48,775 nucleotides of DNA from positions 1-48,775 of the forward strand of contig JAUYMI010000007.1 in assembly GCA_030698665.1 (NCBI GenBank), read 5' to 3'. This DNA comes from a bacterium. Lineage in GTDB: Bacteria; Patescibacteriota; Minisyncoccia; Minisyncoccales; UBA10102. The notes below the pieces were generated by a model. That model saw only the letters and a program-made list of their open reading frames with translations, searched no databases and was not told the origin of the DNA. The position numbers and the translations under genes are program-made. Of this stretch, positions 813 through 19,963 are shown piece after piece (the first letter of the stretch is position 1; every line of letters starts with the position of its first letter).

Positions 813-3251
813 ATGAACATCCTAGACACAATTTTCGGAGATGCTACGGAAAAAGAGCTCAAGAAGCTTCAGCCCATAGTTGAGGAGATAAACTCAAAGG
901 AGGCTGAGTTGGAGCCGCTTTCCAGAGATGAGCTCAAGGCAAGGGCGCTCAATCTCAGGGGAGAGATTCAGCAGGGAAAGAATCTCAATGAGGCGCTTGC
1001 CTTGGCCTTTGCTTTTGTGAGAGAGGCGGCCAAGCGCACGCTGGGCCAGCGTCACTACGACGTACAGCTTCTGGGAGGAATTGTTCTCCACCAGGGCAAG
1101 ATAGCTGAGATGAAGACCGGAGAAGGAAAGACCCTGGTCTCAACGCTTCCGGTCTTTCTCAACGCCTTGGAAGGCAAAGGAGTGCACGTGGTGACCGTGA
1201 ACGACTATCTGGCCAAGAGGGACGCCGTATGGATGGGGCAGATCTACGCCTACCTTGGCTTGCAGGTTGGGTGCGTGGTGCACGAGGGTTCATATCGGTA
1301 TGACGCCTCGTACACGGCGGAAGATGAGGAGCGGGACGAAACAGGATCTTTCAGGATTTTTGAGAACTTCCTGCGTCCGTGCACCAAGAAGGAGGCCTAT
1401 GCGAGCGACATCACCTATGGCACGAACAACGAATTCGGCTTTGACTATCTGCGCGACAACATGGCGCCTGAGACAGAACAGCAGGCCCAGCGCGGATATC
1501 GTTTTGCCATCGTAGACGAGGTGGACTCGGTCCTCATTGACGAGGCCAGGACTCCGCTTATCATCTCGGCTCCCGACCAGGAGAGTTCTTCATGGTACCA
1601 GGATTTTGCCCGTCTCACCCCTCAGCTCAAAGAAGGGGAGGACTATGAGGTGGATGAGAAGCTCAAGGCCGTCACGCTGAGCGAGAACGGCATCAACAGG
1701 GTGGAGAAGCTGCTGGGTGTGGGGGATATCTATCAGGAGAAAGGCATTAAATACATCCATCACTTAGAGAGCGCGCTCAAGGCGCAGGCGCTTTTCAGCC
1801 GCGACCGGGACTATGTGGTAAGAAACGGAGAGGTTCTCATCATAGACGAGTTCACGGGCCGCATGCTGCCTGGGAGAAGGTACTCGGGCGGACTCCACCA
1901 GGCCTTGGAAGCAAAGGAAGGGGTGCGGGTGCAGCCGGAATCTTTGACTTTGGCCTCCATCACCTTTCAGAATTACTTTCGTATGTATGATAAGGTTGCC
2001 GGAATGACGGGAACCGCCATCACCTCAGCTGAGGAGTTCCACAAGGTGTACAAGCTTGAGGTGCTTCCTGTTCCTACCAACCGGCCTTTAGTCAGAGCGG
2101 ACATGCCAGACAAGGTGTACAAGACGAAGGAGGCCAAGTTCAAAGCCGTAGCCAGAGAAGTAAAAGAGCGTCACGAAAATGGCCAGCCCGTGCTCGTGGG
2201 TACGGTTTCCATTGAGAGGAACGAGTACCTTCACAAGCTCCTTGAGACGGAAGGAGTTCCCCATCAGGTGCTCAACGCAAAGAACCACGAGCGTGAAGCT
2301 GAGATCATAGCTCAGGCGGGGCGCAAGGGAGCGGTTACGGTGGCCACGAACATGGCGGGCCGCGGCGTGGACATCATCCTGGGGGGAAATCCCTCAGACG
2401 AGAAGGAAGCAAAAGAGGTGAAGGCTTTGGGGGGCCTGCATGTCATTGGCACTGAGCGCCACGAGGCCAGGCGCATTGATAACCAGCTCAGAGGAAGGTC
2501 GGGGCGGCAGGGAGACCCGGGCTCCTCTCAGTTCTACGTTTCTTTAGAGGATGACCTCATGCGCATCTTTGGGGGTGAGCGTATTCAGGGCATCATGAAC
2601 AGGTTTAAGCTACCGGACGACGAAGCGATTGAGGCCAGGATCGTCTCGGGAGCCATTGAGTCAGCCCAGGGGAAGATTGAGGGAATGCACTTTGACGCGA
2701 GAAAGCACGTACTGGACTATGACGACGTGCTGAATCGGCACCGCGAGATATTCTATTCCAGGCGCAGGGAGGTGTTGGAGATGGCCAAGGACGGGAGCAT
2801 CAAGGAGTATGCGTTTGACCTGGTGAGAGAGCAGGGAGGTTCTCTCCAGGATTTGGAAAAGCGGGAGCAGGAGCTGGGGAAGGAGACCTTTGTCCAGTTT
2901 GCAAAAGCTGTGGCGCTCCGCGTCATGGATTCTTTGTGGATGGACCATTTAGAGATGATGGAAGCTCTCAGGGATTCGGTTCGCCTCCGTGCATACGGCC
3001 AGCAGGATCCTTTAGTGGAGTACAAGAACGAAGGGAGAAAGGAGTTTGATCGCTTTCTCGCCTCCGTTGGTTCTCTCACGGCAAACGCTCTGCTCACAGC
3101 TCAAGTACAGGCCAATCGCCCCCAGCCCGTTTCCGTGCAGGTTGAATCGCACAAGGAGGACGTTGGGAGGAATGATCCCTGCCCGTGCGGGTCGGGGAAG
3201 AAGTGGAAGCGCTGCGGAATGATAAACGCTCCAGAACACCAAAAGAAGTAG
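813..3251 (+). CDS. secA: Preprotein translocase ATPase SecA
   Basis: ORF 789..3251. ATG at 813 follows GAGGGG (801-806). N-terminus MNILDTIFGD..KELKKL; motifs MKTGEGKT, DEVDSVLIDEARTPLIIS and TNMAGRGVDI; C-terminal zinc finger CPCGSGKKWKRCG. Confidence 0.97.
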   Translation: MNILDTIFGDATEKELKKLQPIVEEINSKEAELEPLSRDELKARALNLRGEIQQGKNLNEALALAFAFVREAAKRTLGQRHYDVQLLGGIVLHQGKIAEMKTGEGKTLVSTLPVFLNALEGKGVHVVTVNDYLAKRDAVWMGQIYAYLGLQVGCVVHEGSYRYDASYTAEDEERDETGSFRIFENFLRPCTKKEAYASDITYGTNNEFGFDYLRDNMAPETEQQAQRGYRFAIVDEVDSVLIDEARTPLIISAPDQESSSWYQDFARLTPQLKEGEDYEVDEKLKAVTLSENGINRVEKLLGVGDIYQEKGIKYIHHLESALKAQALFSRDRDYVVRNGEVLIIDEFTGRMLPGRRYSGGLHQALEAKEGVRVQPESLTLASITFQNYFRMYDKVAGMTGTAITSAEEFHKVYKLEVLPVPTNRPLVRADMPDKVYKTKEAKFKAVAREVKERHENGQPVLVGTVSIERNEYLHKLLETEGVPHQVLNAKNHEREAEIIAQAGRKGAVTVATNMAGRGVDIILGGNPSDEKEAKEVKALGGLHVIGTERHEARRIDNQLRGRSGRQGDPGSSQFYVSLEDDLMRIFGGERIQGIMNRFKLPDDEAIEARIVSGAIESAQGKIEGMHFDARKHVLDYDDVLNRHREIFYSRRREVLEMAKDGSIKEYAFDLVREQGGSLQDLEKREQELGKETFVQFAKAVALRVMDSLWMDHLEMMEALRDSVRLRAYGQQDPLVEYKNEGRKEFDRFLASVGSLTANALLTAQVQANRPQPVSVQVESHKEDVGRNDPCPCGSGKKWKRCGMINAPEHQKK

Positions 3252-3267
3252 GTATCTGCGAGAAATC

Positions 3268-3295
3268 TTGACATACTATTTCTTAGTACTATTAT
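3268..3295 (+). promoter_or_regulatory. Sigma70-like promoter abutting the antitoxin start codon, with a flanking inverted repeat
   Basis: TTGACA (3268-3273), 16 nt spacer, TATTAT (3290-3295); ATG at 3303. ATACTAT (3273-3279) and ATAGTAT (3296-3302) form an inverted repeat around the -10, a plausible operator. Confidence 0.5.
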
Positions 3296-3302
3296 ATAGT
3301 AT

Positions 3303-3527
3303 ATGGCAACAATAACGACCCCCGTAGGGAAAGAACTTGAGGAGTTTATCGTGCGGGAAGTACGGGAAGGGCGAGGGGCGAGTAAGGCGCATGTTGTGCG
3401 TCGAGCTTTGGAGCTTCTGCGCGAAGAGCGGGCGTTTGAACGCATCCGCGAGGCGGAAGACGACATAAAAGCCGGCCGCGTGTACAAAGGGAGCCTCCGA
3501 ACGCTCGCCAAGAAACTCCCTTCCTAG
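3303..3527 (+). CDS. Type II antitoxin, ribbon-helix-helix type
   Basis: 74 aa ORF 10 nt upstream of a RelE/ParE-like ORF. The stretch ..ASKAHVVRRALELLREE.. is typical of RHH antitoxins. Confidence 0.7.
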   Translation: MATITTPVGKELEEFIVREVREGRGASKAHVVRRALELLREERAFERIREAEDDIKAGRVYKGSLRTLAKKLPS

Positions 3528-3536
3528 AGTTTACGT

Positions 3537-3791
3537 ATGGAGTTTCTCTACACGCGACGTTTCCTACGTTCATTCAACAAACTCCCCGTGCCGGTTCAAG
3601 AAGATATACTTTCAGCAATTGAACGGTTCAAAAACAAGCGCGAACATAAGGCGTTGCGATTGCATAAGCTATCTGGTCGCATGAAAAAGTACCACGCTTT
3701 TTCTGCAAATTTTACCTACCGCGTAATCGTAGAGATTAAGAAGACAAAGGTGTATTTTCTTGATGTAGGAGATCATGAGGTATATCAGTAG
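3537..3791 (+). CDS. Type II toxin, RelE/ParE superfamily
   Basis: 84 aa. C-terminal pattern ..HKLSGRMKKYHAFSANFTYRVIVEI..KVYFLDVGDHEVY matches the RelE/ParE fold signature. Paired with the upstream antitoxin. Confidence 0.75.
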   Translation: MEFLYTRRFLRSFNKLPVPVQEDILSAIERFKNKREHKALRLHKLSGRMKKYHAFSANFTYRVIVEIKKTKVYFLDVGDHEVYQ

Positions 3792-3834
3792 GCTAGACAG
3801 GGGAAGACGTATAAAAAATGCCACGGTGCCTAGC

Positions 3835-4101
3835 ATGGCGACAATCAGAAAGAAAATCTGGCCCGAGTACTTTGAAGCAGTTGCTTCGGGGAAGAAGAAG
3901 TATGAGCTTCGGCTCAATGATTTTGATGTTCAGGAGGGTGATATGCTCATCCTTGAGGAATGGAATCCTCAAACAAAGGAGTACACGGGGAGAACAACTG
4001 AGAAAAAAGTAGCGTATGTCGGGAAGTTCAGGATTGATAAACTATTCTGGCCAGAGGAAGAAATCAAAGAAAAGGGGATACAGATTATCTCGTTAGAGTA
4101 G
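3835..4101 (+). CDS. ASCH-like DUF3850 domain protein
   Basis: ORF 3775..4101 with internal ATG at 3835. KKIWPEYFEAVASGKKKYELRLNDFDVQEGDMLILEEW matches the DUF3850/ASCH pattern recalled from homologues. Confidence 0.65.
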   Translation: MATIRKKIWPEYFEAVASGKKKYELRLNDFDVQEGDMLILEEWNPQTKEYTGRTTEKKVAYVGKFRIDKLFWPEEEIKEKGIQIISLE

Positions 4102-4382
4102 GTTTTTGGAAAATAAAGGACCGTCGCAGAGGAGAGAATTCTCAAGGACCCGGAGGTGCAGGCCCCACACTCTGACGACGGCCAAGAAGTACGCGCAGTA
4201 CGGGCCACCATTCCCGTTCTGCGACTACCATCAAGTTATCATAGAGAATAGTTGCGTCAAGGTATGAAAAGCACCTTCACCGTTACCATTCACCAGAGTC
4301 AGCGGATGCTCTTGGGTATGGGGCTCTTTTTTGATACACTGGAGCATATCCTTGAGCACGAAGTGAAGATTATCTCAGAGTA

Positions 4383-4832
4383 ATGAAAAAGAGCGCCAAG
4401 AAGATTGTGGTTGCGGTATCGGGCGGGTTTGATCCTTTGCACATCGGCCATGTGCGTCTGTTTGAGGCCGCTCACAAGCTCGGAGACGAGCTTGTGGTGA
4501 TTTTGAATAACGACAACTGGCTGAGAGCTAAGAAAGGGTATGTTTTCATGCAAGAGAAAGAGCGCAAGGAGATTATTGAGGCATTGAGAAGCGTGAGCAA
4601 GGTGATTGTTACCAGCCACCTCAAAGACCCGAAAGATATGAGCGTCGCCGACGACCTACGGAGGATCAAGCCCGATATCTTTGCAAATGGGGGAGATAGG
4701 AAGTCTCACAACACGCCGGAGGATGCCGTGTGCAGGGAGCTGGGCATCAAAATGGCTTTTAATAAGGGAAGGGGAGGCAAGGTCCAGTCCAGCTCTTGGC
4801 TCGTAGAGGTTTTCCAAACAAGAGAGAAATGA
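4383..4832 (+). CDS. Cytidylyl/adenylyltransferase family protein (TagD / RfaE domain II-like)
   Basis: 149 aa. Nucleotidyltransferase signature GGFDPLHIGHVRLF (HxGH motif). The size fits the stand-alone cytidylyltransferase fold. Confidence 0.8.
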   Translation: MKKSAKKIVVAVSGGFDPLHIGHVRLFEAAHKLGDELVVILNNDNWLRAKKGYVFMQEKERKEIIEALRSVSKVIVTSHLKDPKDMSVADDLRRIKPDIFANGGDRKSHNTPEDAVCRELGIKMAFNKGRGGKVQSSSWLVEVFQTREK

Positions 4833-5113
4833 GATTTCGTCTTCCCTTGCAGGGAGAAAGCGTATCCGTATTCCTCAGACGCATGGGATACCATGTTGAA
4901 GGAAACGACAGGGGGACGGGGGAGCTGAAGTTTGCAAGGTCTCTTGTGGCACGAGCGTACCCGAAGTTTCATCTCTACTGCACTCCAGACGGACTCTGCA
5001 ATCTGCACCTGGACCAGAAAGAACCAAGCTATCGGGGGTCTCCCGTCCACAGTGGAGAGTATGAAGGGGAGCTGGTTGAGTCGGAAGCTGCCAGAATTCA
5101 AGGAGGACCCTGA
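4829..5113 (+). CDS. Hypothetical protein
   Basis: ORF 4796..5113. ATG at 4829 overlaps the upstream stop (ATGA), and its own stop overlaps the next ATG (TGATG at 5111-5115). No recognisable motif. Confidence 0.5.
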   Translation: MRFRLPLQGESVSVFLRRMGYHVEGNDRGTGELKFARSLVARAYPKFHLYCTPDGLCNLHLDQKEPSYRGSPVHSGEYEGELVESEAARIQGGP

Positions 5114-5754
5114 TGTTTCTCCTCCCGCTCAGCTTCCTGGTTTTTCTGCTTGTTCTTCCGGCACTCGCGTTTTTGGGATTTTTTCATATCGTCACAATCG
5201 GGTTTGAGAATCTGGGCATTTCTCCTGAGGTCGTTGTCCTCATTCTCCTGCTCATGCTCGTGGGGTCCGCCTTCAACATCCCTTTGGGGAGGAAGCGCCT
5301 TATTGAAGTTGAGACGAGCTCCTGGTTTGGATTAAGGAAGCGCAGGGGAGTTCAGGCCCAGGGCTTGTCTCTCAATGTCGGAGGAGGAGCCATTCCCATT
5401 CTCATAGCCTCGTATCTTTTTCTTTCGGTTCCCGCGGGGCCCGCGATGGCGGCGGTGCTCATAACGGCTCTGGTTTCTTTCAAGATGTCGCGCGTGGTCC
5501 CCGGGCGGGGCGTCACCATCCCCATTCTTCTGCCCCCTTTGGTTGCTGGTGCCGCTTCCTACCTCTTGGTCCCGGGAGCGGTACCCCAGGCCGCCTTTAT
5601 CTCGGGAGTCTTTGGTGTGCTGATCGGAGCTGATCTGCTTCGTCTTCCCTTCATTCTCGCTCACGAGCGCGGCATGCTTTCTATAGGGGGAGCGGGAGTT
5701 TTTGACGGAATCTTCCTCACCTCAATCCTTGCCGTCCTTTTGACTGCCCTGTGA
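5113..5754 (+). CDS. Integral membrane protein, DUF1614-like
   Basis: 213 aa and strongly hydrophobic. AGGAGGA at 5101-5107 precedes the ATG. The motif GGAGVFDGIFL is recalled from the DUF1614 family. Confidence 0.55.
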   Translation: MFLLPLSFLVFLLVLPALAFLGFFHIVTIGFENLGISPEVVVLILLLMLVGSAFNIPLGRKRLIEVETSSWFGLRKRRGVQAQGLSLNVGGGAIPILIASYLFLSVPAGPAMAAVLITALVSFKMSRVVPGRGVTIPILLPPLVAGAASYLLVPGAVPQAAFISGVFGVLIGADLLRLPFILAHERGMLSIGGAGVFDGIFLTSILAVLLTAL

Positions 5755-5768
5755 GGCTGTGATAGCAT
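5740..5768 (+). promoter_or_regulatory. Candidate extended -10 promoter abutting the secD start codon
   Basis: TTGACT (5740-5745), 17 nt spacer ending in TGa, TAGCAT (5763-5768), then 7 nt to ATG at 5776. The 10-mer GTGATAGCAT recurs at 24381-24390 in the same geometry. Confidence 0.45.
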
Positions 5769-5775
5769 ACGCGTT

Positions 5776-7122
5776 ATGTTCAGGCAGAGATTTATTCCCA
5801 TACTGATTCTGCTTGCTGTCTTTCTTTCGGCTGTCTTAGTGTTTCCAGGCCCCGTGAACTTTGGGCTGGGGGTTGTAGAGCAGAAGATCGGCCGGCAGCT
5901 ATTTTCAGTTCCCGAGCGCCCTTTCCAGCTCGGCCTTGACCTCCAGGGAGGCGTTCACCTTGTCTACCAGGCGGATCTTACCAGTATTGTTGGTTCAGAG
6001 CGGAGTGAGGCCATGTCAGGGCTCCGCGATGTCATTGAGAGGAGGGTCAATCTGTTCGGAGTGACAGAGCCTTTGGTGCAGACGGAGGGGACGGGCGAGG
6101 TCAAGCGTCTCATCGTGGAGCTCGCGGGAATAACATCTCCCGAGGAGGCCATCCGTATTATTGGGGAAACCCCGTACCTTGAGTTTCGAAAACCCAAGGA
6201 CAATTATGAGGAGCTTTTGGATCTGAATCGTCAGGCCGTAGAGGCCGGCCAGGTTCCCCAGAACGAGATATTTGAACCCACTCAGCTCTCGGGGCGCTTC
6301 CTCTCAAAAGCGCAGCTCGGATTTGACAACCTATCTCAAGAGCCCCTCATTGAGCTTGAGTTTAATGATGAAGGGGCCGTATTGTTCCGCGAGCTCACAG
6401 AGCAGAACATCGGAAGACCCATTGCCATCTTTTTAGACGGATTTCTTTTGCAGGCTCCTACGGTGCGTGAAGCCATTCTGGGCGGTAGGGCTCAGATCAC
6501 GGGTGGTTTTACGGCAGAAGAGGGGAGACAGCTGGCGCGGGAGCTGAACGCCGGCGCCCTTCCTGTTCCCATAGAGCTCGTTTCCCAGCAGGCAATCGGG
6601 CCGACCCTGGGCAGGGCGTCCCTGGATCTTTCCGTGCGCGCCGGGATTATCGGCACCATTCTCGTAATTGCGTTCATGCTCTTGTTCTACCGGCTCCCCG
6701 GCCTCTTGGCCTCGCTTTCCCTTGCCGTTTACATCGTGGTTCTGCTGGCCCTCTTCAAGCTCATTCCCGTTACTCTAACCTTGGCAGGAATCGGAGGCGT
6801 GATTCTTTCTGTGGGCATGGCGGTGGACGCGAACATTCTTATCTTCTCTCGTATGAGAGAAGAGATGCGGGAGGGCAGGGAGCTCCATCTGGCGCTCTCA
6901 GAGGGTTTCCGCCGCGCCTGGCCCTCCATCAGAGATGGTAATCTCACGACGCTCTTGGTTGCTTTAATCTTGTTCTGGTTCGGGACTTCGTTCGTACAGG
7001 GCTTTGCCCTGACGCTCTCTTTGGGAATTGTCTTGAGCATGGTTTCTTCCATGGTTCTCACGCGTATGCTTATGGAGGGAGTCGGGGTGCTGACGAGAAG
7101 AGCTGAGTGGATGTGGAAGTAG
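5776..7122 (+). CDS. secD: Protein translocase subunit SecD
   Basis: 448 aa. N-terminal TM helix, periplasmic domain (LGLDLQGGV..) and a C-terminal SecD/F TM bundle (GIGGVILSVGMAVDANILIFSRMREE). Confidence 0.95.
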   Translation: MFRQRFIPILILLAVFLSAVLVFPGPVNFGLGVVEQKIGRQLFSVPERPFQLGLDLQGGVHLVYQADLTSIVGSERSEAMSGLRDVIERRVNLFGVTEPLVQTEGTGEVKRLIVELAGITSPEEAIRIIGETPYLEFRKPKDNYEELLDLNRQAVEAGQVPQNEIFEPTQLSGRFLSKAQLGFDNLSQEPLIELEFNDEGAVLFRELTEQNIGRPIAIFLDGFLLQAPTVREAILGGRAQITGGFTAEEGRQLARELNAGALPVPIELVSQQAIGPTLGRASLDLSVRAGIIGTILVIAFMLLFYRLPGLLASLSLAVYIVVLLALFKLIPVTLTLAGIGGVILSVGMAVDANILIFSRMREEMREGRELHLALSEGFRRAWPSIRDGNLTTLLVALILFWFGTSFVQGFALTLSLGIVLSMVSSMVLTRMLMEGVGVLTRRAEWMWK

Positions 7123-7126
7123 CACT

Positions 7127-7984
7127 ATGAAGATTCTTTCTTTCAGATATGTTACCTCGGGTATTTCAGCCCTCCTGATCGCAGGGTCTCTTGCTGCTGT
7201 CGCGGTGTATGGTCTCAGCTTTGGCATTGAGTTTCAGGGAGGAAGTATTTTGGAGGGAACATTTGCCCTCGACAGGCCTCAGGTAGCGGAGCTCAGCGTT
7301 GCGGCGAAAGGAGCAGTGGGACCGTCCGTCATCCAGCCCTTGGGAGAGCGGGGAGTAATCCTCCGCACGCGCTTTCTGACGGAAGACGAACACCAGCAGC
7401 TTGTTCTGGCCCTTGGCAGTTCATTCTCAGAGTCCCGTTTTGAGTCCGTTGGTCCCGTGGTTGGAGAAGAGCTGAAGACAAAGTCCCTGTGGATGGCTTT
7501 GGCCGCCTTTCTCGCCGTCGTGGGATACGTCGCTTTTGCTTTTCGTCGCCTCGCAGAACCCGTGGCCTCCTGGCAGTACGGACTAGTGACTCTTCTGGTG
7601 CTTTTCCACGACGTTCTCTTGCCCATCGGACTCGTTGCTGTGACACGGCATCAAGTCACGATTCCGGTCGTCGTGGCCCTCCTGACAGTTCTCGGATACT
7701 CGGTGAACGATACTGTGGTGGTCTTTGATCGAATCCGCGAGAACCTTCTGCGCCAGGGCAAGGGCGGGTTCACGGAGGTCGTGGAGCGCTCTCTGCGTCA
7801 GACGCTTGCCAGGTCCTTTGCCACATCCTTTACAACCATTTTGGTACTCCTCGCTTTATACTTTTTGGGAGGAGAAAGCCTGCGCGATTTCTCTCTGGTT
7901 CTGGTGGCTGGAATTGCCGCCGGCGCCTACTCATCCGTCTTTCTCGCTCCTACTTTTCTCCTCTGGTTTGCCAAACGCAGTTGA
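7127..7984 (+). CDS. secF: Protein translocase subunit SecF
   Basis: 285 aa, 4 nt after secD. Motifs GIEFQGGS and TVLGYSVNDTVVVFDRIREN. Confidence 0.95.
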   Translation: MKILSFRYVTSGISALLIAGSLAAVAVYGLSFGIEFQGGSILEGTFALDRPQVAELSVAAKGAVGPSVIQPLGERGVILRTRFLTEDEHQQLVLALGSSFSESRFESVGPVVGEELKTKSLWMALAAFLAVVGYVAFAFRRLAEPVASWQYGLVTLLVLFHDVLLPIGLVAVTRHQVTIPVVVALLTVLGYSVNDTVVVFDRIRENLLRQGKGGFTEVVERSLRQTLARSFATSFTTILVLLALYFLGGESLRDFSLVLVAGIAAGAYSSVFLAPTFLLWFAKRS

Positions 7985-8016: not shown

Positions 8017-9063
8017 ATGAAGACATCGTATGATCAGATCACCCTTACCTTGCTCTCCGAGCTCCCAGAACGCACGCGTGAGGTTCTAGGGCGCCGGTTT
8101 GGACTGTTGTCCGAAAAGCCCGAGACCCTAGAGCAGATCGGCCAGGGCATTGGCATCACGAGGGAACGGGTTCGGCAGATTGCGGACGCCGGGCTTGTCC
8201 AGCTCATGGCCTTAATCCGGGAAGAGAAGCGGCACGGAGAGGCGAATGAGGCTTTTTCTCGCCTGCTCGCCCGCCTCAAGGAGGTTGGGGAGGTGAGGCG
8301 CGAAGACCATCTGCTCAAAGATGTTCTAGAGAAAGAGGAGGAGGCAAATCACGTCATCTTCCTTCTTCATGTTGGAGACCCATTCTTCCACCATCGGGAA
8401 ACTTCAGAGACCCATGCCTTTTGGGCAAGCAAGGAAGAGGGTATTTCAGGGGTTCTTTCAGCCCTCCATACCGTCAAGGCATACTTTGAGAAGCGCAACG
8501 CGGCCGCCACCTTAGAGGAGATCGCCCAGCTCTACGAAAAGAAGTTCGGAGGGCGCATCACTCCAGAAACCCTGGCCTCCTACCTTGAGATTTCAAAGCA
8601 CGTCATGCAGGGACCCGAGGGTTCTTGGGGCTTGAAGTCCTGGCCTGAGGTAAATCCCAAGGGAATCCGCGATAAGGCGTATCTCGTTGTAAAGTCCTCA
8701 GGCTCTCCCTTGCACTTTACTAAGGTGGCAGAGCGCATCCGCGAGTTCCAGCAGACCTTTGCTCCCAGCTCTCAAAAGCAGTGCTTGCCCCAGACCGTGC
8801 ACAACGAACTCATTAAAGATCCCAGGTTTGTCCTGGTCGGGAGGGGTACCTATGCCCTCAAGGAGTGGGGGTACCGCCCCGGCACCGTGCGGGACGTGAT
8901 CACTCAGATTCTCAAGGAGAGTGGTAAACCTCTCTCAAAAGATGATATTATAAAAAAGGCGCTTTCCGAGCGTCAGGTGAAAGAGAGCACCATTGCTCTC
9001 AACCTTCAGAACAAGAAGTACTTTGCCCGAGACGGCAAGGGAAGGTATCTCCCTGTTTCATAA
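8017..9063 (+). CDS. Sigma-70 region-4-like HTH protein with a C-terminal HARE-HTH domain
   Basis: N-terminus LPERTREVLGRRFGL..ETLEQIGQGIGITRERVRQIADAGL is a sigma region 4 HTH. C-terminal ..PLHFTKVAERI..VHNELIKDPRFVLVGRGTYALKEWGY matches the HARE-HTH pattern of RpoE-delta-like proteins. Confidence 0.75.
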   Translation: MKTSYDQITLTLLSELPERTREVLGRRFGLLSEKPETLEQIGQGIGITRERVRQIADAGLVQLMALIREEKRHGEANEAFSRLLARLKEVGEVRREDHLLKDVLEKEEEANHVIFLLHVGDPFFHHRETSETHAFWASKEEGISGVLSALHTVKAYFEKRNAAATLEEIAQLYEKKFGGRITPETLASYLEISKHVMQGPEGSWGLKSWPEVNPKGIRDKAYLVVKSSGSPLHFTKVAERIREFQQTFAPSSQKQCLPQTVHNELIKDPRFVLVGRGTYALKEWGYRPGTVRDVITQILKESGKPLSKDDIIKKALSERQVKESTIALNLQNKKYFARDGKGRYLPVS

Positions 9064-10361
9064 TGGATTTTACTCCATACCTACAGATCCTCTGGGACCT
9101 CGTGAAGGACTGGTGGTGGCTGGCTTTGCCGGTTGTGCTTTACAAACCAACCGTGTTTTTGTGGCTGTGGTGGCGCCAAGAGATGTGGATCAACCAGCAG
9201 AGAATGATCGTGCTGGAGATTACGCCTCCCCGCGAGGTCGTAAAACCCATCCGGGCCATGGAGAACGTTTTCTCAGCCCTCTGGCAGGTACACGATCCCC
9301 CGAACCCGAGAGAGAAGTGGTTTGAGGGCAAGGTGCAGATGAGTATCTCTCTGGAGATTGTCTCTGACGGAGGCAAGGTGCATTTTTATATCAGGTGTCC
9401 TGAAGGGAACCGTAACCTTATTGAGTCATCCCTGTATTCCGAGTATCCCAGCATTGAGATTGCCGAGGTGGAGGACTACATCAAGCAGGTCCCCCCGGAC
9501 ATTCCGAACAAGGAGTGGGATCTGTGGGGAACGAACTACAAGCTCCAAAAGCCGGACCCCTATCCCATCAAGACCTACAAGTACTTCTTTGAGGAGTCAG
9601 AGGGTTCAAAGGAGGAAGAGCGCGTGGATCCTCTGTCCAACCTCGTTGAGGGGCTTTCCCATTTCAGGAAAGGGGAAAAGCTGTGGCTGCAGATTGTCAT
9701 CACGCCTATTCTCAACTCAGAGCGGAACTATGTCGCTGAAGGCAAGGCGATTGTGGATAAGCTCGTGAAGCGCCCGGATCCAAAGAAGGGGCCCACGGTG
9801 TTTTCGGATTTGGAAGCCGTAAGCGCCCACCTGGCGACCGGCATACCAAAAACTCAAATGGCAGAGGAGGTACGAGAGTTCATTCCTCCTGAAATGAAGC
9901 TTACTCCGGGCGAGCGTCTCACAGTGGCAGCCATTGAAGAGAAGGTCGGGAAGTACGCCTTTCACGCGGTGCCGAGGTTCATCTATCTGGCTCCCCGCGA
10001 CAACTACTACAGCCCGTCTAAGGCGATTGCGATGAGCTACTTTTCTCAGATGAGTACGGCCGACCTCAACGGATTCGGTCCTTTGCGCCCGACCTTAACG
10101 AAGGTCCACACCATTTTGACCTGGTTTCTGGACCGGAGGCGGGTATACATTCGCAAGAGGCGTCTGTTGAGAAACTACGTGCGGCGTCTTCCGCCGTTCT
10201 TCCCAGTCAACACGCTCAAAGGAACCATTCTGCTCAACATTGAGGAGTTGGCGACGATGTTTCACTTCCCGGGCCAGATTGTGGCTCCGGGTGCCGGCTG
10301 GCCGAGAGTTGAGACCAAGAAGGGAGGGGCTCCGAGGGAGCTTCCCATGGAAGAAGAATAA
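9063..10361 (+). CDS. Membrane-anchored hypothetical protein, partner of the downstream VirD4/TraD-like ATPase
   Basis: 432 aa. ATG shares 1 nt with the upstream TAA. Trp-rich N-terminal TM segment; C-terminal ..LNIEELATMFHFPG.. resembles the segment preceding the ATPase domain in fused coupling-protein-like proteins (from memory, not verified). Confidence 0.6.
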   Translation: MDFTPYLQILWDLVKDWWWLALPVVLYKPTVFLWLWWRQEMWINQQRMIVLEITPPREVVKPIRAMENVFSALWQVHDPPNPREKWFEGKVQMSISLEIVSDGGKVHFYIRCPEGNRNLIESSLYSEYPSIEIAEVEDYIKQVPPDIPNKEWDLWGTNYKLQKPDPYPIKTYKYFFEESEGSKEEERVDPLSNLVEGLSHFRKGEKLWLQIVITPILNSERNYVAEGKAIVDKLVKRPDPKKGPTVFSDLEAVSAHLATGIPKTQMAEEVREFIPPEMKLTPGERLTVAAIEEKVGKYAFHAVPRFIYLAPRDNYYSPSKAIAMSYFSQMSTADLNGFGPLRPTLTKVHTILTWFLDRRRVYIRKRRLLRNYVRRLPPFFPVNTLKGTILLNIEELATMFHFPGQIVAPGAGWPRVETKKGGAPRELPMEEE

Positions 10362-10364
10362 GAT

Positions 10365-12041
10365 ATGGCTGAAATCAACTTTTTCGGATACACAACCTTT
10401 CGCAACCAGCGGAGGAAGTTTGGCATTAAGATTGATGACCGGAGAAGACACGTGTACGTGATGGGGAAGACCGGCATGGGCAAGACAGCTATGCTAGAGA
10501 ACATGGCCGAACAAGACATCACGGCCGGCCACGGTGTGGGCTTCATTGATCCGCACGGGGAAGCTGCAGAAAAGCTCTTGGACTACATTCCGGCTTCCCG
10601 CGTGGATGACGTCATCTATTTCAATCCTGCCGACATGGCGCATCCCATCGCCTTCAACGTCATGGAGCAGGTGGCTCCCGAGTACCGGCACCTGGTCGCT
10701 TCGGGTTTAATGTCGGTTTTCAAGAAGATTTGGCCTGACGTTTGGTCAGCTCGTATGGAGTACATTTTAAACAACGTGATCTTGGCGCTTTTAGAGTATC
10801 CGGGAGCCACACTCCTCGGGATCAACCGCATGCTGTCTGACCGCGCGTATCGAGAGGAGGTGATCAGTAAGCTCACGGACCCCATCATCAAGGCGTTCTG
10901 GGTGCAGGAGTACGCGAGGTACACGGAGCGCTATGAGGTGGAGGCGACGGCCGCCATTCAAAACAAAGTCGGTCAGTTCGTTTCAAACCCTCTCATACGA
11001 AACATCGTGGGGCAGACGAGATCCGCCATTAATATGAGGGAAATCATGGACGGGGAGAAGGTCCTCATAGCCAACATTTCCAAGGGCCGGGTCGGGGAGG
11101 ATAACTCGCGCCTCCTGGGAGCCCTGCTCATCACCAAGCTTCAGCTTGCGGCCATGTCGCGCGTGGACATTCCAGAGCAGGAGCGCAAGGACTTCTTTTT
11201 GTACATTGACGAGTTCCAGAACTTTGCCTCAGAGTCCTTCGTGAACATTCTTTCAGAAGCCAGAAAATACCGGCTGGATCTCATTTTGGGGCACCAGTAC
11301 ATCGCTCAGTTAGACGAGACAGTGCGGGATGCCGTATTCGGAAACGTGGGGACCATGGTTGCTTTCCGCGTGGGAGCCGAGGACGCAGAGTGGCTCGAGC
11401 GGGAGTTTTCTCCCGAGTTTACGGCTCAGGATTTGGTCAACCTTGGCAAGTACAACGTGTACTTGAAGCTCATGATTGACGGCCTGGCGGGAGCTCCCTT
11501 TTCAGCTGAGACCCTGCTTCCGCTTCCTGAGCCCGAAAACTCCCAGAAGGATCATATCATTCAGGCTTCAAGGCAGCGCTACGGCACCCCCCAGAGCGAG
11601 GTGGAGGAGGCGATTAGCGATTGGTCGCTCATGAGGGAAGCTACCTCAGCACAGCCGCCAAGGGCGGCTCCTCCTCGCCCGTCTTCTGTCGCTAGCGGGG
11701 AAACTTTGTATGACGCTATCTGTTCTTCGTGCGGCAAGCCCACGAAGGTGGTCTTTCCTCCCGACGGCAAGCGGCCCACGTACTGCAAGTCCTGCCGCAA
11801 GAAGCAAAAGCGCTCACAAGAACAGGTGAAGGGACCGGCTCAGCCAATGTCGCTGAAGGATGCCTTGGGCGCAAAGCCTGTCTTCTTCCATCCTTCAAAG
11901 GCGCAGGAGGCACGCGAGGGAAGCTCTGGAAATGCCGAACTCAGACAGGTACTACAAGAGTCCCTGAAGCAGACCTCGGAAAAGAGCAAAGAGAAGGGAG
12001 AGATTGTCCCCGGCCAGACTATACGCTTTGAGCATGAATGA
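10365..12041 (+). CDS. VirD4/TraD/TraG-like (type IV coupling-protein family) P-loop ATPase with a C-terminal zinc ribbon
   Basis: 558 aa. Walker A GKTGMGKT, Walker B FFLYIDEFQNF, then LGHQYIAQL..GNVGTMVAFRVG typical of the TraD/TraG C-terminal region. Tail CSSCGKPTKVVFPPDGKRPTYCKSCRKK. Confidence 0.8.
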   Translation: MAEINFFGYTTFRNQRRKFGIKIDDRRRHVYVMGKTGMGKTAMLENMAEQDITAGHGVGFIDPHGEAAEKLLDYIPASRVDDVIYFNPADMAHPIAFNVMEQVAPEYRHLVASGLMSVFKKIWPDVWSARMEYILNNVILALLEYPGATLLGINRMLSDRAYREEVISKLTDPIIKAFWVQEYARYTERYEVEATAAIQNKVGQFVSNPLIRNIVGQTRSAINMREIMDGEKVLIANISKGRVGEDNSRLLGALLITKLQLAAMSRVDIPEQERKDFFLYIDEFQNFASESFVNILSEARKYRLDLILGHQYIAQLDETVRDAVFGNVGTMVAFRVGAEDAEWLEREFSPEFTAQDLVNLGKYNVYLKLMIDGLAGAPFSAETLLPLPEPENSQKDHIIQASRQRYGTPQSEVEEAISDWSLMREATSAQPPRAAPPRPSSVASGETLYDAICSSCGKPTKVVFPPDGKRPTYCKSCRKKQKRSQEQVKGPAQPMSLKDALGAKPVFFHPSKAQEAREGSSGNAELRQVLQESLKQTSEKSKEKGEIVPGQTIRFEHE

Positions 12042-14709: not shown

Positions 14710-15102
14710 CGTCAAGCTGTATGGCAGTCGCTCTCGCGTTCTCAGAACGTGGGAGAGGAAGGTCCGAACACTACTTCCCGTCAGAAGAACGGGTCTAAAA
14801 GGGTAGCGGGTAACACCCGTCCGCAGTAATGCGAGAGGTGCGAGCAGAGACGCTGAGGCAAGCGATTGCCGAGGCCCTTGCCAGAGTGGCAAGGTGAGCT
14901 CCGGGAGTAATCCTGGAGGTGAAACGGCTAAATCCTTATCCGAGTGCAAGAGCAAGCCAGGGAATCAGCTTCCATGTTGAAGCCCTGTGAAAAGTAGCTC
15001 GCTGGAGCCTGAGGGTAACCTCAGGCCAAGACAGATGATTGCCGCTCTGTCCTCGCGAGGGGGCAGAGTACAGAATTCGGCCTATATTACAGCTTGGCCG
15101 GG
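14710..15102 (+). ncRNA. rnpB: RNase P RNA, bacterial type A
   Basis: P4 strands GAGAGGAAGGUCCGAAC (about 14753-14769) and ACAGAAUUCGGCCUAUA (15070-15086). P1 pairs AAGCUGU (14714-14720) with ACAGCUU (15089-15095). No credible ORF on this strand. Confidence 0.85.
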
Positions 15103-19149: not shown

Positions 19150-19220
19150 GCGGGTGTAACACAGTGGCAGTGTGCTTGCTTCCCAAGCAAGATACGCGAG
19201 TTCGATTCTCGTCACCCGCT
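19150..19220 (+). tRNA. tRNA-Gly (anticodon CCC)
   Basis: Hand-folded cloverleaf. Acceptor GCGGGTG/CACCCGC, D stem ACAC/GTGT, anticodon stem CTTGC/GCAAG with loop TTCCCAA, T arm GCGAG-TTCGATT-CTCGT. CCA is not encoded. Confidence 0.9.
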
Positions 19221-19230
19221 CAAGGAGCGC

Positions 19231-19910: not shown

Positions 19911-19918
19911 GTTTGGTT

Positions 19919-19949: not shown

Positions 19950-19963
19950 GGCGAGATTTAAAT

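What the first reader, a model, noticed from the sequence alone, without database searches (positions are those of the whole stretch)
8017..12041. Translationally coupled HTH protein, membrane protein and orphan VirD4/TraD-like ATPase inside a housekeeping region
Three genes are packed with a 1 nt overlap and then a 3 nt gap:
1. a sigma-region-4 plus HARE-HTH DNA-binding protein;
2. a 432 aa protein with a Trp-rich N-terminal TM segment;
3. a 558 aa coupling-protein-family ATPase (Walker A GKTGMGKT, Walker B YIDEFQNF).

They sit between secDF and pgk. The window contains no relaxase, VirB4, VirB6, pilin or other conjugation or T4SS gene. A coupling-protein-like motor kept as a core-genome gene with a dedicated membrane partner points to a substrate (DNA or protein) translocation function that has not been characterised.
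Basis: partly seen in the sequence, partly recalled or inferred. Interest (0 to 1): 0.66.

Follow-up and report, generated by a model that had tools for sequence, protein, structure and literature searches.

The report
Split membrane-anchored coupling ATPase of Patescibacteria
Two adjacent genes here are the separated halves of one membrane-anchored, conjugation-type motor protein; it is found across the ultra-small Patescibacteria, is conserved as strongly as core secretion genes, persists in lineages that lack a type IV secretion system, and its job is still unknown.

Summary
In detail: the three ORFs, their junctions (TAATG; TAA-gat-ATG), their motifs and the housekeeping context are all as described, and the window holds no T4SS gene.

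The "membrane partner" (DUF8128, PF26449) and the "orphan ATPase" are not two independent proteins. They are the N- and C-terminal halves of one ancestral protein. Fused DUF8128+TrwB-type proteins (725-1142 aa) occur in Berkelbacteria, Falkowbacteria, Saccharibacteria and Gottesmanbacteria, and in Bacillus phages (G gp156, SPO1 gp27.4). The fusion junction is colinear with the gene boundary in this window.

In Paceibacteria the gene is split. The pair is adjacent in 72 of 76 genomes tested, including genomes where the surrounding synteny is lost.

The motor is VirD4/TrwB/DotL-like and is the most conserved gene of the block (median identity 64%, against 61% for SecA).

VirB4 is present elsewhere in 7 of 11 cross-checked genomes that carry the trio. 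It is absent in 11 of 12 Wildermuthbacteria, the nearest named lineage, so the motor is not strictly tied to a T4SS.

In S. epibionticum the probable fused orthologue is non-essential, whereas the upstream sigma-r4/HARE-HTH orthologue is essential.

Verdict: a real, phylum-wide, uncharacterised bipartite coupling-type translocase, and a new variant of a known kind. Interest is moderate to high.

The parts
8017..9063 (+). Sigma-70 region 4 + HARE-HTH / winged-helix DNA-binding protein (348 aa). It is the first gene of the trio and the orthologue by architecture of the essential S. epibionticum gene SEML1_0294.
   Evidence: Pfam Sigma70_r4 at 12-63 and HARE-HTH at 219-284. The PDB sequence search hits only sigma region 4 of RpoS/RpoD. 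The gene lies within 300 nt upstream of DUF8128 in 64 of 77 loci. SEML1_0294 has the same architecture and is called ES/ES/ES in Tn-seq.
9063..10361 (+). DUF8128 (PF26449) protein, 432 aa: an N-terminal membrane anchor plus a cytoplasmic alpha/beta domain. It is the detached N-terminal half of the DUF8128-T4CP protein.
   Evidence: Precomputed PF26449 annotation. AF2 model with pLDDT 83 and pTM 0.79. Foldseek matches: phage G gp156 E 8e-17 and TrwK/VirB4 E 1e-4. hhalign against the gp156 N-terminal half gives 98.5% probability. Fused homologues exist.
9111..9167 (+). Trp-rich hydrophobic membrane-anchor segment (residues about 17-35 of DUF8128).
   Evidence: This is the only hydrophobic 19-mer in the protein. 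K+R residues are enriched on the C-terminal flank in 33 of 40 and 34 of 36 family members, which implies N-out/C-in topology. The equivalent segment in fused homologues is strongly hydrophobic, 2.7-3.5.
10233..10271 (+). Signature C-terminal motif LNIEELATMFHFP (residues 391-403 of DUF8128). In fused homologues it lies just before the junction with the motor.
   Evidence: E394, E395, A397, H401 and P403 are invariant or nearly invariant. The motif aligns to LNVQEMSQFIHLPG of phage G gp156 and is present in the fused Patescibacteria proteins.
10365..12041 (+). VirD4/TrwB-type (T4CP-family) ATPase without a TM segment, 558 aa: the motor half.
   Evidence: Pfam TrwB_AAD_bind, TraG-D_C and T4SS-DNA_transf. 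Best sequence match in the PDB is TrwB. Foldseek: DotL 7e-10, TrwB about 3e-8, Cag-beta; VirB4 C-terminal domain only 1.6e-4. No TM segment. Median identity of 64% across 64 genomes.
10464..10487 (+). Walker A motif GKTGMGKT (residues 34-41).
   Evidence: Read directly from the sequence. Conserved in 31 of 31 homologues.
11199..11225 (+). Walker B region LYIDEFQNF (residues 279-287).
   Evidence: Read directly from the sequence. Conserved in 31 of 31 homologues. Aligns to the TrwB Walker B region.
11721..11795 (+). CxxC-x17-CxxC treble-clef zinc finger (residues 453-477), followed by an 81-aa charged, disordered tail.
   Evidence: Pfam zf_Tbcl_2 E 1.3e-10 and TIGR04272. Present in 31 of 31 split-form homologues and absent from 8 of 8 fused forms.

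Best explanation
Genes 9063-10361 and 10365-12041 together encode a bipartite, membrane-anchored ATPase of the type IV coupling protein (VirD4/TrwB) family. This is the gene-fission form, typical of Paceibacteria, of a DUF8128-T4CP protein that is a single polypeptide in other Patescibacteria classes and in some Bacillus phages.

Shown here: the two halves are colinear with the fused proteins. DUF8128 supplies one N-terminal hydrophobic helix and an alpha/beta domain with no P-loop. The motor half has intact Walker A and B motifs, a helical insert at the position of the T4CP all-alpha domain, no TM segment, and in the split form an added zinc finger and charged tail.

Inferred: DUF8128 sits N-out/C-in in the membrane and holds a hexameric motor ring at the cytoplasmic face. 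The ring uses NTP hydrolysis to move a polymer, most probably nucleic acid, as in TrwB, CedD and the phage 'DNA translocation operon' ATPases. It would move it towards or from a membrane conduit.

The machine descends from the T4SS coupling ATPase and may still feed the Patescibacteria T4SS where one exists. However, it is maintained under very strong purifying selection in lineages that lack VirB4. I therefore infer that it also has a T4SS-independent housekeeping-like role, with nucleic-acid transfer across the membrane the most likely.

The upstream sigma-r4/HARE-HTH protein is usually co-transcribed. It is either the DNA-recognition adaptor or regulator of the motor, or an RNA-polymerase-associated factor that merely shares the operon. 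It has at least one essential function that does not depend on the motor.
For: Identity and architecture:
- Pfam, PDB sequence and Foldseek results all place the motor with T4CPs.
- The DUF8128 profile hits the N-terminal half and the T4CP profile hits the C-terminal half of the same polypeptides: phage G gp156, SPO1 gp27.4 and JL gp150 (hhalign 98.5%, E 1.7e-15), and eight Patescibacteria proteins from Berkelbacteria, Falkowbacteria, Saccharibacteria and Gottesmanbacteria. The junction is colinear with the window's gene boundary.

Linkage:
- T4CP lies within 300 nt downstream of DUF8128 in 72 of 76 loci, with a median gap of 12 nt.
- The linkage holds in loci whose flanks are unrelated to this window: L080, L082, L086 and L088.

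Topology: one hydrophobic segment, and the positive-inside rule holds in 33 of 40 and 34 of 36 family members.

Selection: the motor has a median identity of 64.4%, against SecA 61.1%, SecD 52.6% and PGK 40.0% in the same genomes. It stays at 60-67% while housekeeping identity falls from 56% to 39%.

Independence from the T4SS:
- Wildermuthbacteria keep the trio (L016, L018, L020) but are VirB4-negative in 11 of 12 genomes.
- 4 of 11 cross-checked trio genomes lack VirB4.
- T4CP homologues are found in 2,918 of 3,035 genomes and VirB4 in 2,417; only 148 of 5,713 T4CP genes lie near virB4.
- In S. epibionticum the T4SS is essential but the 921-aa T4CP SEML1_0293 is not.

Nucleic-acid precedent:
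- Phage relatives sit in an operon with an HTH-containing relaxase-type protein.
Against: - No substrate, oligomeric state, ATPase activity or localisation has been measured.
- The fold link of DUF8128 to VirB4 is weak in the PDB search (TM 0.34-0.38) and has no sequence-profile support.
- 7 of 11 trio genomes do have VirB4, and in Gottesmanbacteria the fused gene adjoins the T4SS cluster. A plain 'T4SS coupling protein encoded in trans' remains viable for most lineages.
- VirB4 absence is scored on draft MAGs.
- Non-essentiality in S. epibionticum fits poorly with SecA-level conservation, unless the function matters only outside laboratory co-culture.
- Orthology of SEML1_0293 to the window proteins rests on architecture and on a related Saccharibacteria protein (P0458), not on its own sequence.
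- The HTH gene is absent next to the fused genes in L098, L099 and L100.
Confidence: 0.6

Rival explanations
1. This is simply the coupling protein of the Patescibacteria MPF-FATA-like T4SS, encoded away from the virB4 cluster as T4CP genes often are. DUF8128, with its VirB4-NTD-like fold, docks the soluble motor onto the T4SS inner-membrane platform. The only role of the pair is to deliver substrates to that T4SS.
For: - T4CP family membership.
- The best PDB fold matches of DUF8128 are TrwK/VirB4.
- Phage G gp155, a VirB4-type ATPase (P-loop_TraG/AAA_10), shares the N-terminal fold and sits next to gp156.
- TrsD-VirB4 pairs in pGO1 and in Patescibacteria T4SS clusters show the same 'N-domain gene followed by ATPase gene' layout.
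- The fused gene is adjacent to PrgI/TraC-like/VirB4 in Gottesmanbacteria.
- VirB4 is present in 7 of 11 trio genomes and in about 80% of the phylum.
Against: - The trio is retained intact in Wildermuthbacteria, which are VirB4-negative in 11 of 12 genomes.
- T4CP homologues are more prevalent than VirB4 (96% against 80% of genomes) and only 148 of 5,713 lie near virB4.
- In S. epibionticum the T4SS is essential but the T4CP is not.
- The motor is more conserved than SecA, which is unlike typical T4CPs.
- Almost no relaxases are found in the phylum.
Confidence: 0.27
2. It is an FtsK/SpoIIIE-like housekeeping DNA pump. It would clear or segregate chromosomal DNA at the division septum, with the HTH protein acting like the FtsK gamma domain to read DNA polarity.
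For: - It belongs to the HerA-FtsK superfamily, is membrane-anchored, and has a DNA-binding partner.
- It has core-genome status and very high conservation.
- The phage relatives are linked to actin-like segregation proteins.
Against: - There is no FtsK_SpoIIIE, FtsK alpha or FtsK gamma Pfam signal.
- S. epibionticum has a canonical, essential FtsK (SEML1_0096: 4TM + alpha + motor + gamma), while its T4CP is dispensable.
- The T4CP folds rank above any FtsK structure in the fold search.
Confidence: 0.05
3. It is an anti-phage defence or other conflict module built around a HerA/T4CP-like ATPase, as in MADS mad8, DndH or SIR2-HerA.
For: - The best PADLOC hit for the ATPase is mad8 of MADS (E 1.5e-14), with weaker HerA hits.
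- Foldseek hits include DndH-C, SIR2-HerA and DUF4297-HerA.
- HARE-HTH domains occur in restriction-related contexts (the Pfam description; established knowledge).
Against: - The locus is fixed in a conserved housekeeping block in at least 70 genomes.
- Sequence conservation is at the level of SecA.
- There is no nuclease, Sir2 or methylase effector nearby.
- DUF8128 has no PADLOC hit.
- Wang et al. classify the family as a 'core family'.
- Defence systems are patchy and fast-evolving (established knowledge).
Confidence: 0.03
4. It is a remnant of an integrated conjugative or mobilisable element, or of a prophage 'DNA translocation operon', with no function for the cell.
For: - The closest described relatives outside the phylum are in Bacillus phages.
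- A probable Patescibacteria phage contig carries a copy of the motor alone (L092).
Against: - The reading frames are intact and the catalytic motifs are invariant in all homologues examined.
- GC content equals that of the flanks.
- There is no integrase, relaxase or repeat boundary.
- The locus is the same across many genera.
- Purifying selection is strong.
Confidence: 0.02

Closest known systems
Type IV coupling proteins (VirD4, TrwB of R388, TraD, DotL, Cag-beta)
   Same: The motor shares the P-loop nucleotide-binding domain with a helical insert. It matches Pfam TrwB_AAD_bind, TraG-D_C and T4SS-DNA_transf, has its best PDB sequence match in TrwB, and its best fold matches in DotL, TrwB and Cag-beta. 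It is membrane-anchored at the N-terminus, here through DUF8128.
   Different: The canonical N-terminal multi-helix TMD is replaced by one helix plus a domain of about 370 aa (DUF8128), carried here on a separate polypeptide. The motor has an extra C-terminal zinc finger. There is no relaxase and no linked T4SS. The gene is chromosomal, core, and far more conserved than plasmid T4CPs. It is retained in lineages without VirB4.
'VirD4-like T4CP homologues' of Patescibacteria (Quinonero-Coronel et al. 2025, PMC12102498) and SEML1_0293 of Ca. Southlakia epibionticum (Wang et al. 2023, PMC10633639)
   Same: This is very probably the same gene family: 5,713 copies in 2,918 genomes, mostly far from virB4. 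SEML1_0293 is flagged as a core and Patescibacteria-enriched family, is non-essential, and is preceded by a Sigma70_r4+HARE-HTH gene exactly as in this window.
   Different: Those papers do not describe the DUF8128 N-terminal domain, the split and fused forms, the phage relatives, the SecA-level conservation, or the retention in VirB4-negative lineages. I could not align SEML1_0293 itself; its fused state is inferred from its length and domain coordinates and from the Saccharibacteria protein P0458.
Coupling ATPase of the Bacillus phage 'DNA translocation operon' (0305phi8-36 orf201, SPO1 gp27.4, phage G gp156; Pathria et al. 2012, PMC3357382)
   Same: These proteins are homologous in both halves: a DUF8128-type N-terminal domain fused to a T4CP-type ATPase. 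Phage G gp156 itself carries PF26449. The gene lies next to a gene for an HTH-containing DNA-binding protein, and the operon is dispensable in laboratory culture.
   Different: The phage proteins lack the N-terminal TM helix and the zinc finger. Their neighbour is a Replic_Relax/MobC-type putative relaxase that is not homologous to the window's HTH protein. They are also accompanied by an actin-like protein. Identity to the window's motor is only 23-28%.
CedD/TedD, the VirD4-like ATPase of the archaeal Ced DNA-import system (PMC11823120)
   Same: CedD is a VirD4-like HerA-FtsK ATPase encoded away from the other system genes. Some orthologues lack a TM domain and are thought to be tethered by another protein. 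It is essential for DNA import rather than export. The window's motor gives a weak NCBIfam CedD hit (E 7.5e-8, residues 12-89).
   Different: CedD works with CedA, CedA1, CedA2 and CedB, which are VirB6-, VirB2- and VirB4-like. No DUF8128 domain is reported for it, and the sequence similarity is limited to the P-loop region.
TrsD-TrsE (pGO1) and VirB3-VirB4: an N-terminal-domain gene followed by a VirB4 ATPase gene
   Same: The layout is the same: a small membrane or N-domain protein encoded immediately upstream of the ATPase. The best PDB fold matches of DUF8128 are TrwK/VirB4.
   Different: There is no detectable sequence-profile similarity to TrsD, TrsE or TrwK. The motor is of the VirD4 type, not the VirB4 type.
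RNA polymerase sigma-70 region 4 and RNAP delta subunit (HARE-HTH), compared with ORF1
   Same: The N-terminal 60 residues match sigma region 4 of RpoS/RpoD. Residues 219-284 match HARE-HTH, and they match RNAP delta at 38 bits.
   Different: ORF1 has no sigma region 2 or 3. The delta model score is below its cut-off of 42 bits. The architecture of region 4 followed by three winged helices is specific to Patescibacteria ('Patescibacteria enriched').

Membership tests
Type IV coupling protein (VirD4/TrwB/TraD) | HerA-FtsK-type P-loop nucleotide-binding domain with Walker A and B motifs | tested here: met
   GKTGMGKT at 34-41 and YIDEFQNF at 280-287, invariant in 31 of 31 homologues. Pfam PF10412 scores 43.4 bits against a cut-off of 20.5.
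Type IV coupling protein (VirD4/TrwB/TraD) | All-alpha domain inserted in the NBD, and overall T4CP fold | tested here: met
   The AF2 model has a helical insert at about residues 105-215. The top Foldseek hits are DotL (6.8e-10), TrwB (about 3e-8, TMt about 0.5) and Cag-beta. Model confidence is only moderate (pLDDT 71).
Type IV coupling protein (VirD4/TrwB/TraD) | N-terminal transmembrane domain in the same polypeptide | tested here: not met
   The ATPase has no hydrophobic segment. The anchor is on the separate DUF8128 protein. In fused relatives, 6 of 8 have an N-terminal TM helix.
Type IV coupling protein (VirD4/TrwB/TraD) | Works with a VirB4-containing T4SS and, for DNA transfer, a relaxase | tested here: inconclusive
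   There are none in the window or in the flanks of more than 80 loci. VirB4 is present elsewhere in 7 of 11 trio genomes and absent in 4 of 11, and absent in 11 of 12 Wildermuthbacteria. It is adjacent in one Gottesmanbacteria genome. The rest of this genome is not available.
Type IV coupling protein (VirD4/TrwB/TraD) | Hexameric ring with nucleic-acid-stimulated NTPase activity | not testable with these tools
DUF8128 (PF26449) | Match to the Pfam model | tested here: met
   The precomputed annotation gives PF26449 for the window protein P0001 and its homologues. The model is absent from the local Pfam copy, which explains the zero hits.
VirB4 (TrwK/TraC/TrsE) | VirB4-type C-terminal ATPase (P-loop_TraG / AAA_10 / CagE_TrbE_VirB) | tested here: not met
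   No such Pfam hit for the motor. The VirB4 C-terminal domain (4ag6) ranks 42nd at E 1.6e-4, behind the T4CPs.
VirB4 (TrwK/TraC/TrsE) | N-terminal domain homologous to the VirB4 NTD/TrsD | tested here: inconclusive
   The top 13 PDB Foldseek hits for DUF8128 are all TrwK, but with TM scores of only 0.34-0.38. Phage G gp155, a VirB4-type ATPase, shares the fold at E 1.2e-7. hhalign against TrsD, TrsE and TrwK found nothing.
FtsK/SpoIIIE | FtsK alpha/beta motor (PF01580, PF17854) and gamma winged helix (PF09397) | tested here: not met
   No hits at E <= 0.1. A canonical FtsK coexists with the T4CP in S. epibionticum.
Phage 'DNA translocation operon' (0305phi8-36 / SPO1) | Coupling ATPase with a DUF8128-type N-domain | tested here: met
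   hmmsearch and hhalign match both halves. tblastn gives E 3e-40 to gp156.
Phage 'DNA translocation operon' (0305phi8-36 / SPO1) | Adjacent Replic_Relax/MobC-type relaxase and actin-like protein | tested here: not met
   The window's HTH protein is not homologous to gp27.3 or JL gp149. There is no actin-like gene in the window.
Sigma-70 family sigma factor (ORF1) | Region 2 (-10 recognition and core binding) together with region 4 | tested here: not met
   Only Sigma70_r4 is detected. All NCBIfam sigma models score 18-56 bits against cut-offs of 240-800.
RNA polymerase delta subunit (ORF1) | TIGR04567 equivalog score | tested here: not met
   38.0 bits against a cut-off of 42. The domain is internal, not N-terminal.
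MADS defence system (mad8) | mad8-like ATPase within an eight-gene mad1-mad8 operon | tested here: not met
   The ATPase hits mad8 at E 1.5e-14, but neither neighbour hits any mad model and the context is housekeeping.

The most novel reading that the evidence does not exclude
The DUF8128-T4CP machine is a T4SS-independent nucleic-acid import motor of Patescibacteria. On this reading it is the missing ATPase that pulls host-derived or environmental DNA, or possibly RNA, through the cytoplasmic membrane. It would work with ComEC and the type IV pilus, or with another conduit, in organisms that cannot make nucleotides. The sigma-r4/HARE-HTH protein, or the Paceibacteria-specific zinc finger, would handle the incoming polymer.

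Observations consistent with this reading:
- No ComFA is annotated in S. epibionticum, while ComEC, ComFC, DprA and the T4CP are all present and all non-essential.
- CedD shows that a VirD4-like motor can drive DNA import.
- The route of host RNA uptake in a cultivated member of the phylum is explicitly unresolved.
- The motor is kept where VirB4 is absent.

None of these observations tests the idea directly.
Probability: 0.2. Interest if true: 0.85.

Novelty: new variant of a known kind. Interest (0 to 1): 0.58.

Why it matters
Patescibacteria make up a large share of bacterial diversity, and they live by taking building blocks, including nucleic acids, from host cells. How those polymers cross the parasite's membrane is an open question.

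This locus encodes a motor of the family that moves DNA through membranes in conjugation and in archaeal DNA import. The motor is present phylum-wide, is conserved as strongly as SecA, and survives in lineages with no type IV secretion system. That makes it a concrete candidate for a core, lineage-specific transport function.

Recognising that DUF8128 is the N-terminal half of this protein removes a 'domain of unknown function' and explains the missing membrane anchor of the Patescibacteria 'T4CP'. It also links the protein to the enigmatic 'DNA translocation operons' of large Bacillus phages.

The function is directly testable, because the fused orthologue can be knocked out in the genetically tractable S. 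epibionticum.

Tried and rejected
- Local Pfam and NCBIfam scans of ORF2 found nothing, and a scan of 40 family members found nothing consistent. The PF26449 model is simply not in the local copy.
- A PDB sequence search with the DUF8128 profile gave 0 hits.
- hhalign of the DUF8128 profile against pGO1 TrsD, pGO1 TrsE, R388 TrwK and the motor profile gave no signal. DUF8128 is therefore not a degenerate paralogue of its ATPase, and the VirB4 link is at the fold level only.
- A genome scan with the divergent alignment A2 failed because no stretch was conserved enough. A1 was used instead.
- The listing of cluster members on 10 divergent DUF8128 representatives gave almost no taxon names.
- Looking up contig and assembly accessions in the 2025 paper's supplement failed. 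Strain names worked.
- Table S3 of that paper is truncated in storage, so the T4CP rows for Wildermuthbacteria could not be read.
- The promoter and terminator scan found nothing above shuffle expectation inside the trio.
- FtsK-substitute idea: rejected, because S. epibionticum has a canonical, essential FtsK.
- Defence-system idea: rejected on conservation and synteny, despite the mad8 hit.
- Homology between the window's HTH protein and the phage Replic_Relax partner: rejected.
- The recurrent 1164-aa ORFs inserted in L055 and L076 are unrelated to each other: one is a pseudopilin-like protein, the other a PG_binding/SpaA surface protein. There is no hidden fourth partner.
- 'Candidatus Saccharibacteria' labels on the binchicken MAGs and the 'CPR3' label on P0128 are unreliable. 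These loci have Paceibacteria-type synteny.

Full report
**1. Observation**

The three ORFs exist exactly as described: 8017-9063 (348 aa), 9063-10361 (432 aa) and 10365-12041 (558 aa), all on the + strand. The junctions read TAATG (1-nt overlap) and TAA-gat-ATG (3-nt gap).

- ORF1 carries Sigma70_r4 (12-63) and HARE-HTH (219-284). Its only matches among solved structures are sigma region 4 of RpoS/RpoD.
- ORF3 matches TrwB_AAD_bind, TraG-D_C and T4SS-DNA_transf.
- ORF2 has no hit in the local libraries. In the large protein database it is annotated PF26449, DUF8128.

The flanks are SecA, DUF1614, SecD and SecF on one side and PGK, a DHH phosphoesterase, RNase H, RNase P RNA, MurJ and LepA on the other. 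Nothing in the window resembles a relaxase, VirB4, VirB6, pilin or FtsK. GC content is uniform across the trio and its flanks.

Tight gene packing is general in this window. The overlaps are real, but they are not specific evidence that the trio is functionally coupled.

**2. The pair is one protein split in two**

A confident AF2 model of ORF2 (pLDDT 83, pTM 0.79) found only TrwK/VirB4 of R388 among solved structures. Those hits were consistent (top 13) but weak (TM 0.34-0.38). Against predicted viral structures the matches were much stronger: Bacillus phage G gp156 (E 8e-17, TMq 0.51), phage JL gp150 (E 9e-15) and phage Slash (E 1e-13).

A tblastn search with the window's ATPase found the same phage proteins: 60 records, 56 of them Bacillus phages, with gp156 at E 3e-40. 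In these polypeptides of 825-913 aa the ATPase match occupies the C-terminal half.

A DUF8128 profile built only from Patescibacteria sequences hits the N-terminal half:
- phage G gp156, 74 bits;
- SPO1 gp27.4, 26 bits;
- hhalign against the gp156 N-terminal half gives 98.5% probability, E 1.7e-15, over 291 columns, including the signature LNxEELAxxxHFPG motif.

Searching the large protein database with gp156 then revealed many fused PF26449+PF10412 proteins of 725-1142 aa in other Patescibacteria lineages: Berkelbacteria, Falkowbacteria, Saccharibacteria and Gottesmanbacteria. In eight of these proteins:
- the DUF8128 profile covers residues about 4-389, and the motor profile follows directly, from about 317 or 383-397 onward;
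- the motor part is 36-56% identical to the window's ATPase;
- six of the eight have a strongly hydrophobic N-terminal helix;
- none has the zinc finger.

The fused sequences run from "...KKGExPxxLP" straight into "...FGIKxDDRRxHxYxxGKTGxGK[ST]". This is colinear with the stop and start boundary at 10361/10365 in the window. The 432-aa 'membrane protein' and the 'orphan ATPase' are therefore a gene-fission form of one protein, and the split form has gained a zinc finger.

**3. Linkage and selection within Paceibacteria**

A scan of species-representative genomes found at least 565 genomes with a DUF8128 relative, of which 80 loci were kept.
- The motor gene lies within 300 nt downstream of DUF8128 in 72 of 76 testable loci. 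The median gap is 12 nt, and 34 gaps are 10 nt or less.
- The HTH gene lies within 300 nt upstream in 64 of 77 loci.

In most of these genomes the whole SecA...LepA block is syntenic, so adjacency alone is weak evidence. The pair, and often the trio, also persists where both flanks are unrelated (L080, L082, L086, L088) or where insertions separate the HTH gene (L076, L077, L079). The exceptions are:
- L055 (Minisyncoccus archaeiphilus), with a 3.7-kb pseudopilin-like insertion between the two halves;
- L062 and L083, where no motor gene follows.

The motor is the most conserved gene in the block. Its median identity to the window is 64.4%, against SecA 61.1%, SecD 52.6%, DUF8128 43.6%, HTH 42.0% and PGK 40.0%. 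It stays at 60-67% while the average identity of the housekeeping genes falls from 56% to 39%. Walker A, Walker B and the zinc finger are invariant in 31 of 31 homologues.

**4. What kind of motor**

By sequence the closest solved structure is TrwB. By fold the best matches are DotL, TrwB and Cag-beta, followed by HerA and DndH-C. The VirB4 C-terminal domain is far behind, at E 1.6e-4. The model shows a helical insert at residues 105-215, where T4CPs carry their all-alpha domain. The ATPase has no TM segment.

DUF8128 has a single hydrophobic segment at residues about 17-35. Its positive-inside bias (33 of 40 and 34 of 36 family members) places the large domain in the cytoplasm. It has no P-loop and is not a paralogue of the motor.

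**5. Relation to the T4SS**

Published work already reports the following (PMC12102498):
- 5,713 VirD4-like genes in 2,918 of 3,035 Patescibacteria genomes;
- only 148 of them near virB4;
- VirB4 in 2,417 genomes;
- almost no relaxases;
- possible exaptation of the T4CP.

I cross-referenced that paper's Table S1 with genomes in which I had verified the DUF8128 locus.
- VirB4 is present in 7 genomes: DG_74_1, three Nealsonbacteria, two Staskawiczbacteria and Greene0416_39.
- VirB4 is absent in 4 genomes: Nealsonbacteria 43_13, Wildermuthbacteria 49_22b and 40_12, and ADurb.Bin247.

In the part of the table I read, Wildermuthbacteria are VirB4-negative in 11 of 12 genomes, while Zambryskibacteria are positive in 22 of 25. 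Against a phylum-wide frequency of 80%, 11 of 12 negative is too extreme to be explained by incomplete assemblies (my own estimate, not a tool result). Wildermuthbacteria nevertheless keep the intact trio (L016, L018, L020). They include the reference genome closest to this window overall (L018), although at only about 56% identity. The T4SS status of this genome itself therefore remains unknown.

In the other direction, a Gottesmanbacteria genome has the fused gene placed divergently next to a PrgI/TraC-like/VirB4 cluster. T4SS clusters in the phylum, and plasmid pGO1, also show the analogous TrsD-then-VirB4 gene order.

My reading is that the protein descends from the T4SS coupling ATPase but is not strictly dependent on the T4SS.

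**6. Genetic data from a cultured relative**

In Ca. Southlakia epibionticum (Wang et al. 2023, PMC10633639):
- SEML1_0294 is 349 aa, with Sigma70_r4 at 27-72, HARE-HTH at 225-283 and three winged helices. It is a core, Patescibacteria-enriched family and is essential at all time points.
- SEML1_0293 lies 155 nt downstream. It is 921 aa, with TrwB_AAD_bind at 402-719 and nothing assigned to residues 1-360. It is also core and Patescibacteria-enriched, and is called non-essential, although its normalised reads fall from 5817 to 2940 to 1372.

The authors state that the essential T4SS of this organism lacks a recognisable coupling protein. The same genome has a canonical, essential FtsK. No ComFA is annotated, while ComEC is present and non-essential.

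Three conclusions follow:
- the HTH protein has an essential role that does not depend on the motor;
- the motor is not an FtsK substitute;
- the essential function of the T4SS does not require the motor.

The fused state of SEML1_0293 is inferred from its length and domain coordinates, and from the Saccharibacteria protein P0458 (945 aa), which I did verify. I could not obtain the sequence of SEML1_0293 itself.

**7. Phage relatives**

Pathria et al. 2012 (PMC3357382) described a 'DNA translocation operon' in phage 0305phi8-36 and in SPO1. It contains an HTH-containing MobC/Replic_Relax-type relaxase (SPO1 gp27.3), a TM-less 'VirD4-like' coupling ATPase with a distinct N-terminal domain (orf201/gp27.4), and an actin-like protein. 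The operon is dispensable in the laboratory.

My Pfam scan confirms Replic_Relax and ALP domains next to gp27.4 and JL gp150. It also shows that phage G gp155 is a VirB4-type ATPase (P-loop_TraG/AAA_10) that shares the DUF8128-like N-terminal fold. The window's HTH protein is not homologous to the phage relaxase family. The two DNA-binding proteins share only an analogous position next to the motor gene.

**8. Mechanism**

Shown:
- the split and fused architecture;
- the single N-terminal anchor helix;
- intact catalytic motifs;
- the T4CP fold;
- tight linkage of the two halves;
- extreme conservation of the motor;
- persistence of the pair without VirB4.

Inferred:
- DUF8128 tethers a hexameric motor at the cytoplasmic face of the membrane;
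- the complex may feed the T4SS where one exists, but also serves a T4SS-independent role.

The most novel reading that the evidence does not exclude is an import motor for DNA or host RNA. The route of RNA uptake in a cultivated member of the phylum is explicitly unresolved.

**9. Novelty**

Already known: VirD4-like genes are abundant in Patescibacteria and lie away from virB4; the family is core and phylum-enriched; it is dispensable in S. epibionticum.

New here, as far as the searchable literature shows (no paper mentions DUF8128):
- DUF8128 is the N-terminal half of this protein;
- the gene is split in Paceibacteria, and the split form has gained a zinc finger;
- both halves are homologous to the phage 'DNA translocation' ATPases;
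- the motor is conserved at the level of SecA;
- the trio is retained in a VirB4-poor lineage.

I classify the finding as a new variant of a known kind.

Noticed in passing
L092 (IMGVR_UViG_3300015370_000561), 3956-5254: A contig with a phage holin, an M23 peptidase and a PLD-like nuclease carries a 432-aa motor-only copy of the ATPase. It is 59% identical to the window's motor and has neither DUF8128 nor the zinc finger. This is possibly a Patescibacteria phage that has captured the host motor.
   Followed up: partly
L055 (Minisyncoccus archaeiphilus PMX.108), 8408-11902: In the cultured species, an 1164-aa ORF with an N-terminal methylation (pilin-like) motif and a Gly_rich_2 domain is inserted between DUF8128 and the motor. 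The motor here is 784 aa.
   Followed up: partly
L087, 9532-10980: A second, divergent T4CP-like gene (482 aa) lies directly downstream of the DUF8128-motor pair. Table S3 of PMC12102498 likewise lists several T4CP-like genes per genome, some in tandem, so the phylum has more than one T4CP-like family.
   Followed up: no
L100 (Gottesmanbacteria), 1002-7181: A TM-less fused DUF8128-T4CP gene is placed divergently next to a PrgI / TraC-like (PF26593) / VirB4 (P-loop_TraG) / M23 peptidase cluster. This is one of the rare cases of linkage to a T4SS.
   Followed up: partly
L077, 10502-12217: The gene downstream of the motor encodes a 571-aa protein that also ends in a zf_Tbcl_2 zinc finger. This suggests the finger is a mobile module in these genomes.
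   Followed up: no
window 19900-29200: GC content drops to 0.43-0.48. The stretch holds a run of large ORFs with no Pfam hit, or with only Big_6, Dockerin or Big_13 domains, plus a spermidine-synthase-like protein. It looks like a surface-protein island of different composition.
   Followed up: no
window 14713-15100; 19150-19304; 31937-32009: Bacterial RNase P RNA class A (116 bits), and tRNA-Gly(CCC), tRNA-Thr(CGT) and tRNA-Gln(CTG).
   Followed up: yes
window 12004-12041: The longest PGK ORF (TTG start at 12004) overlaps the end of the motor gene by 38 nt. An ATG at 12034 would leave an 8-nt overlap. In relatives the motor and PGK genes overlap by about 4 nt, so PGK may be co-transcribed with the trio.
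   Followed up: partly
S. epibionticum SEML1_0293 (literature, not in the window): The gene is called non-essential, but its normalised Tn-seq reads fall about four-fold from T0 to T2 (5817, 2940, 1372). This hints at a fitness cost that the HMM call does not capture.
   Followed up: no
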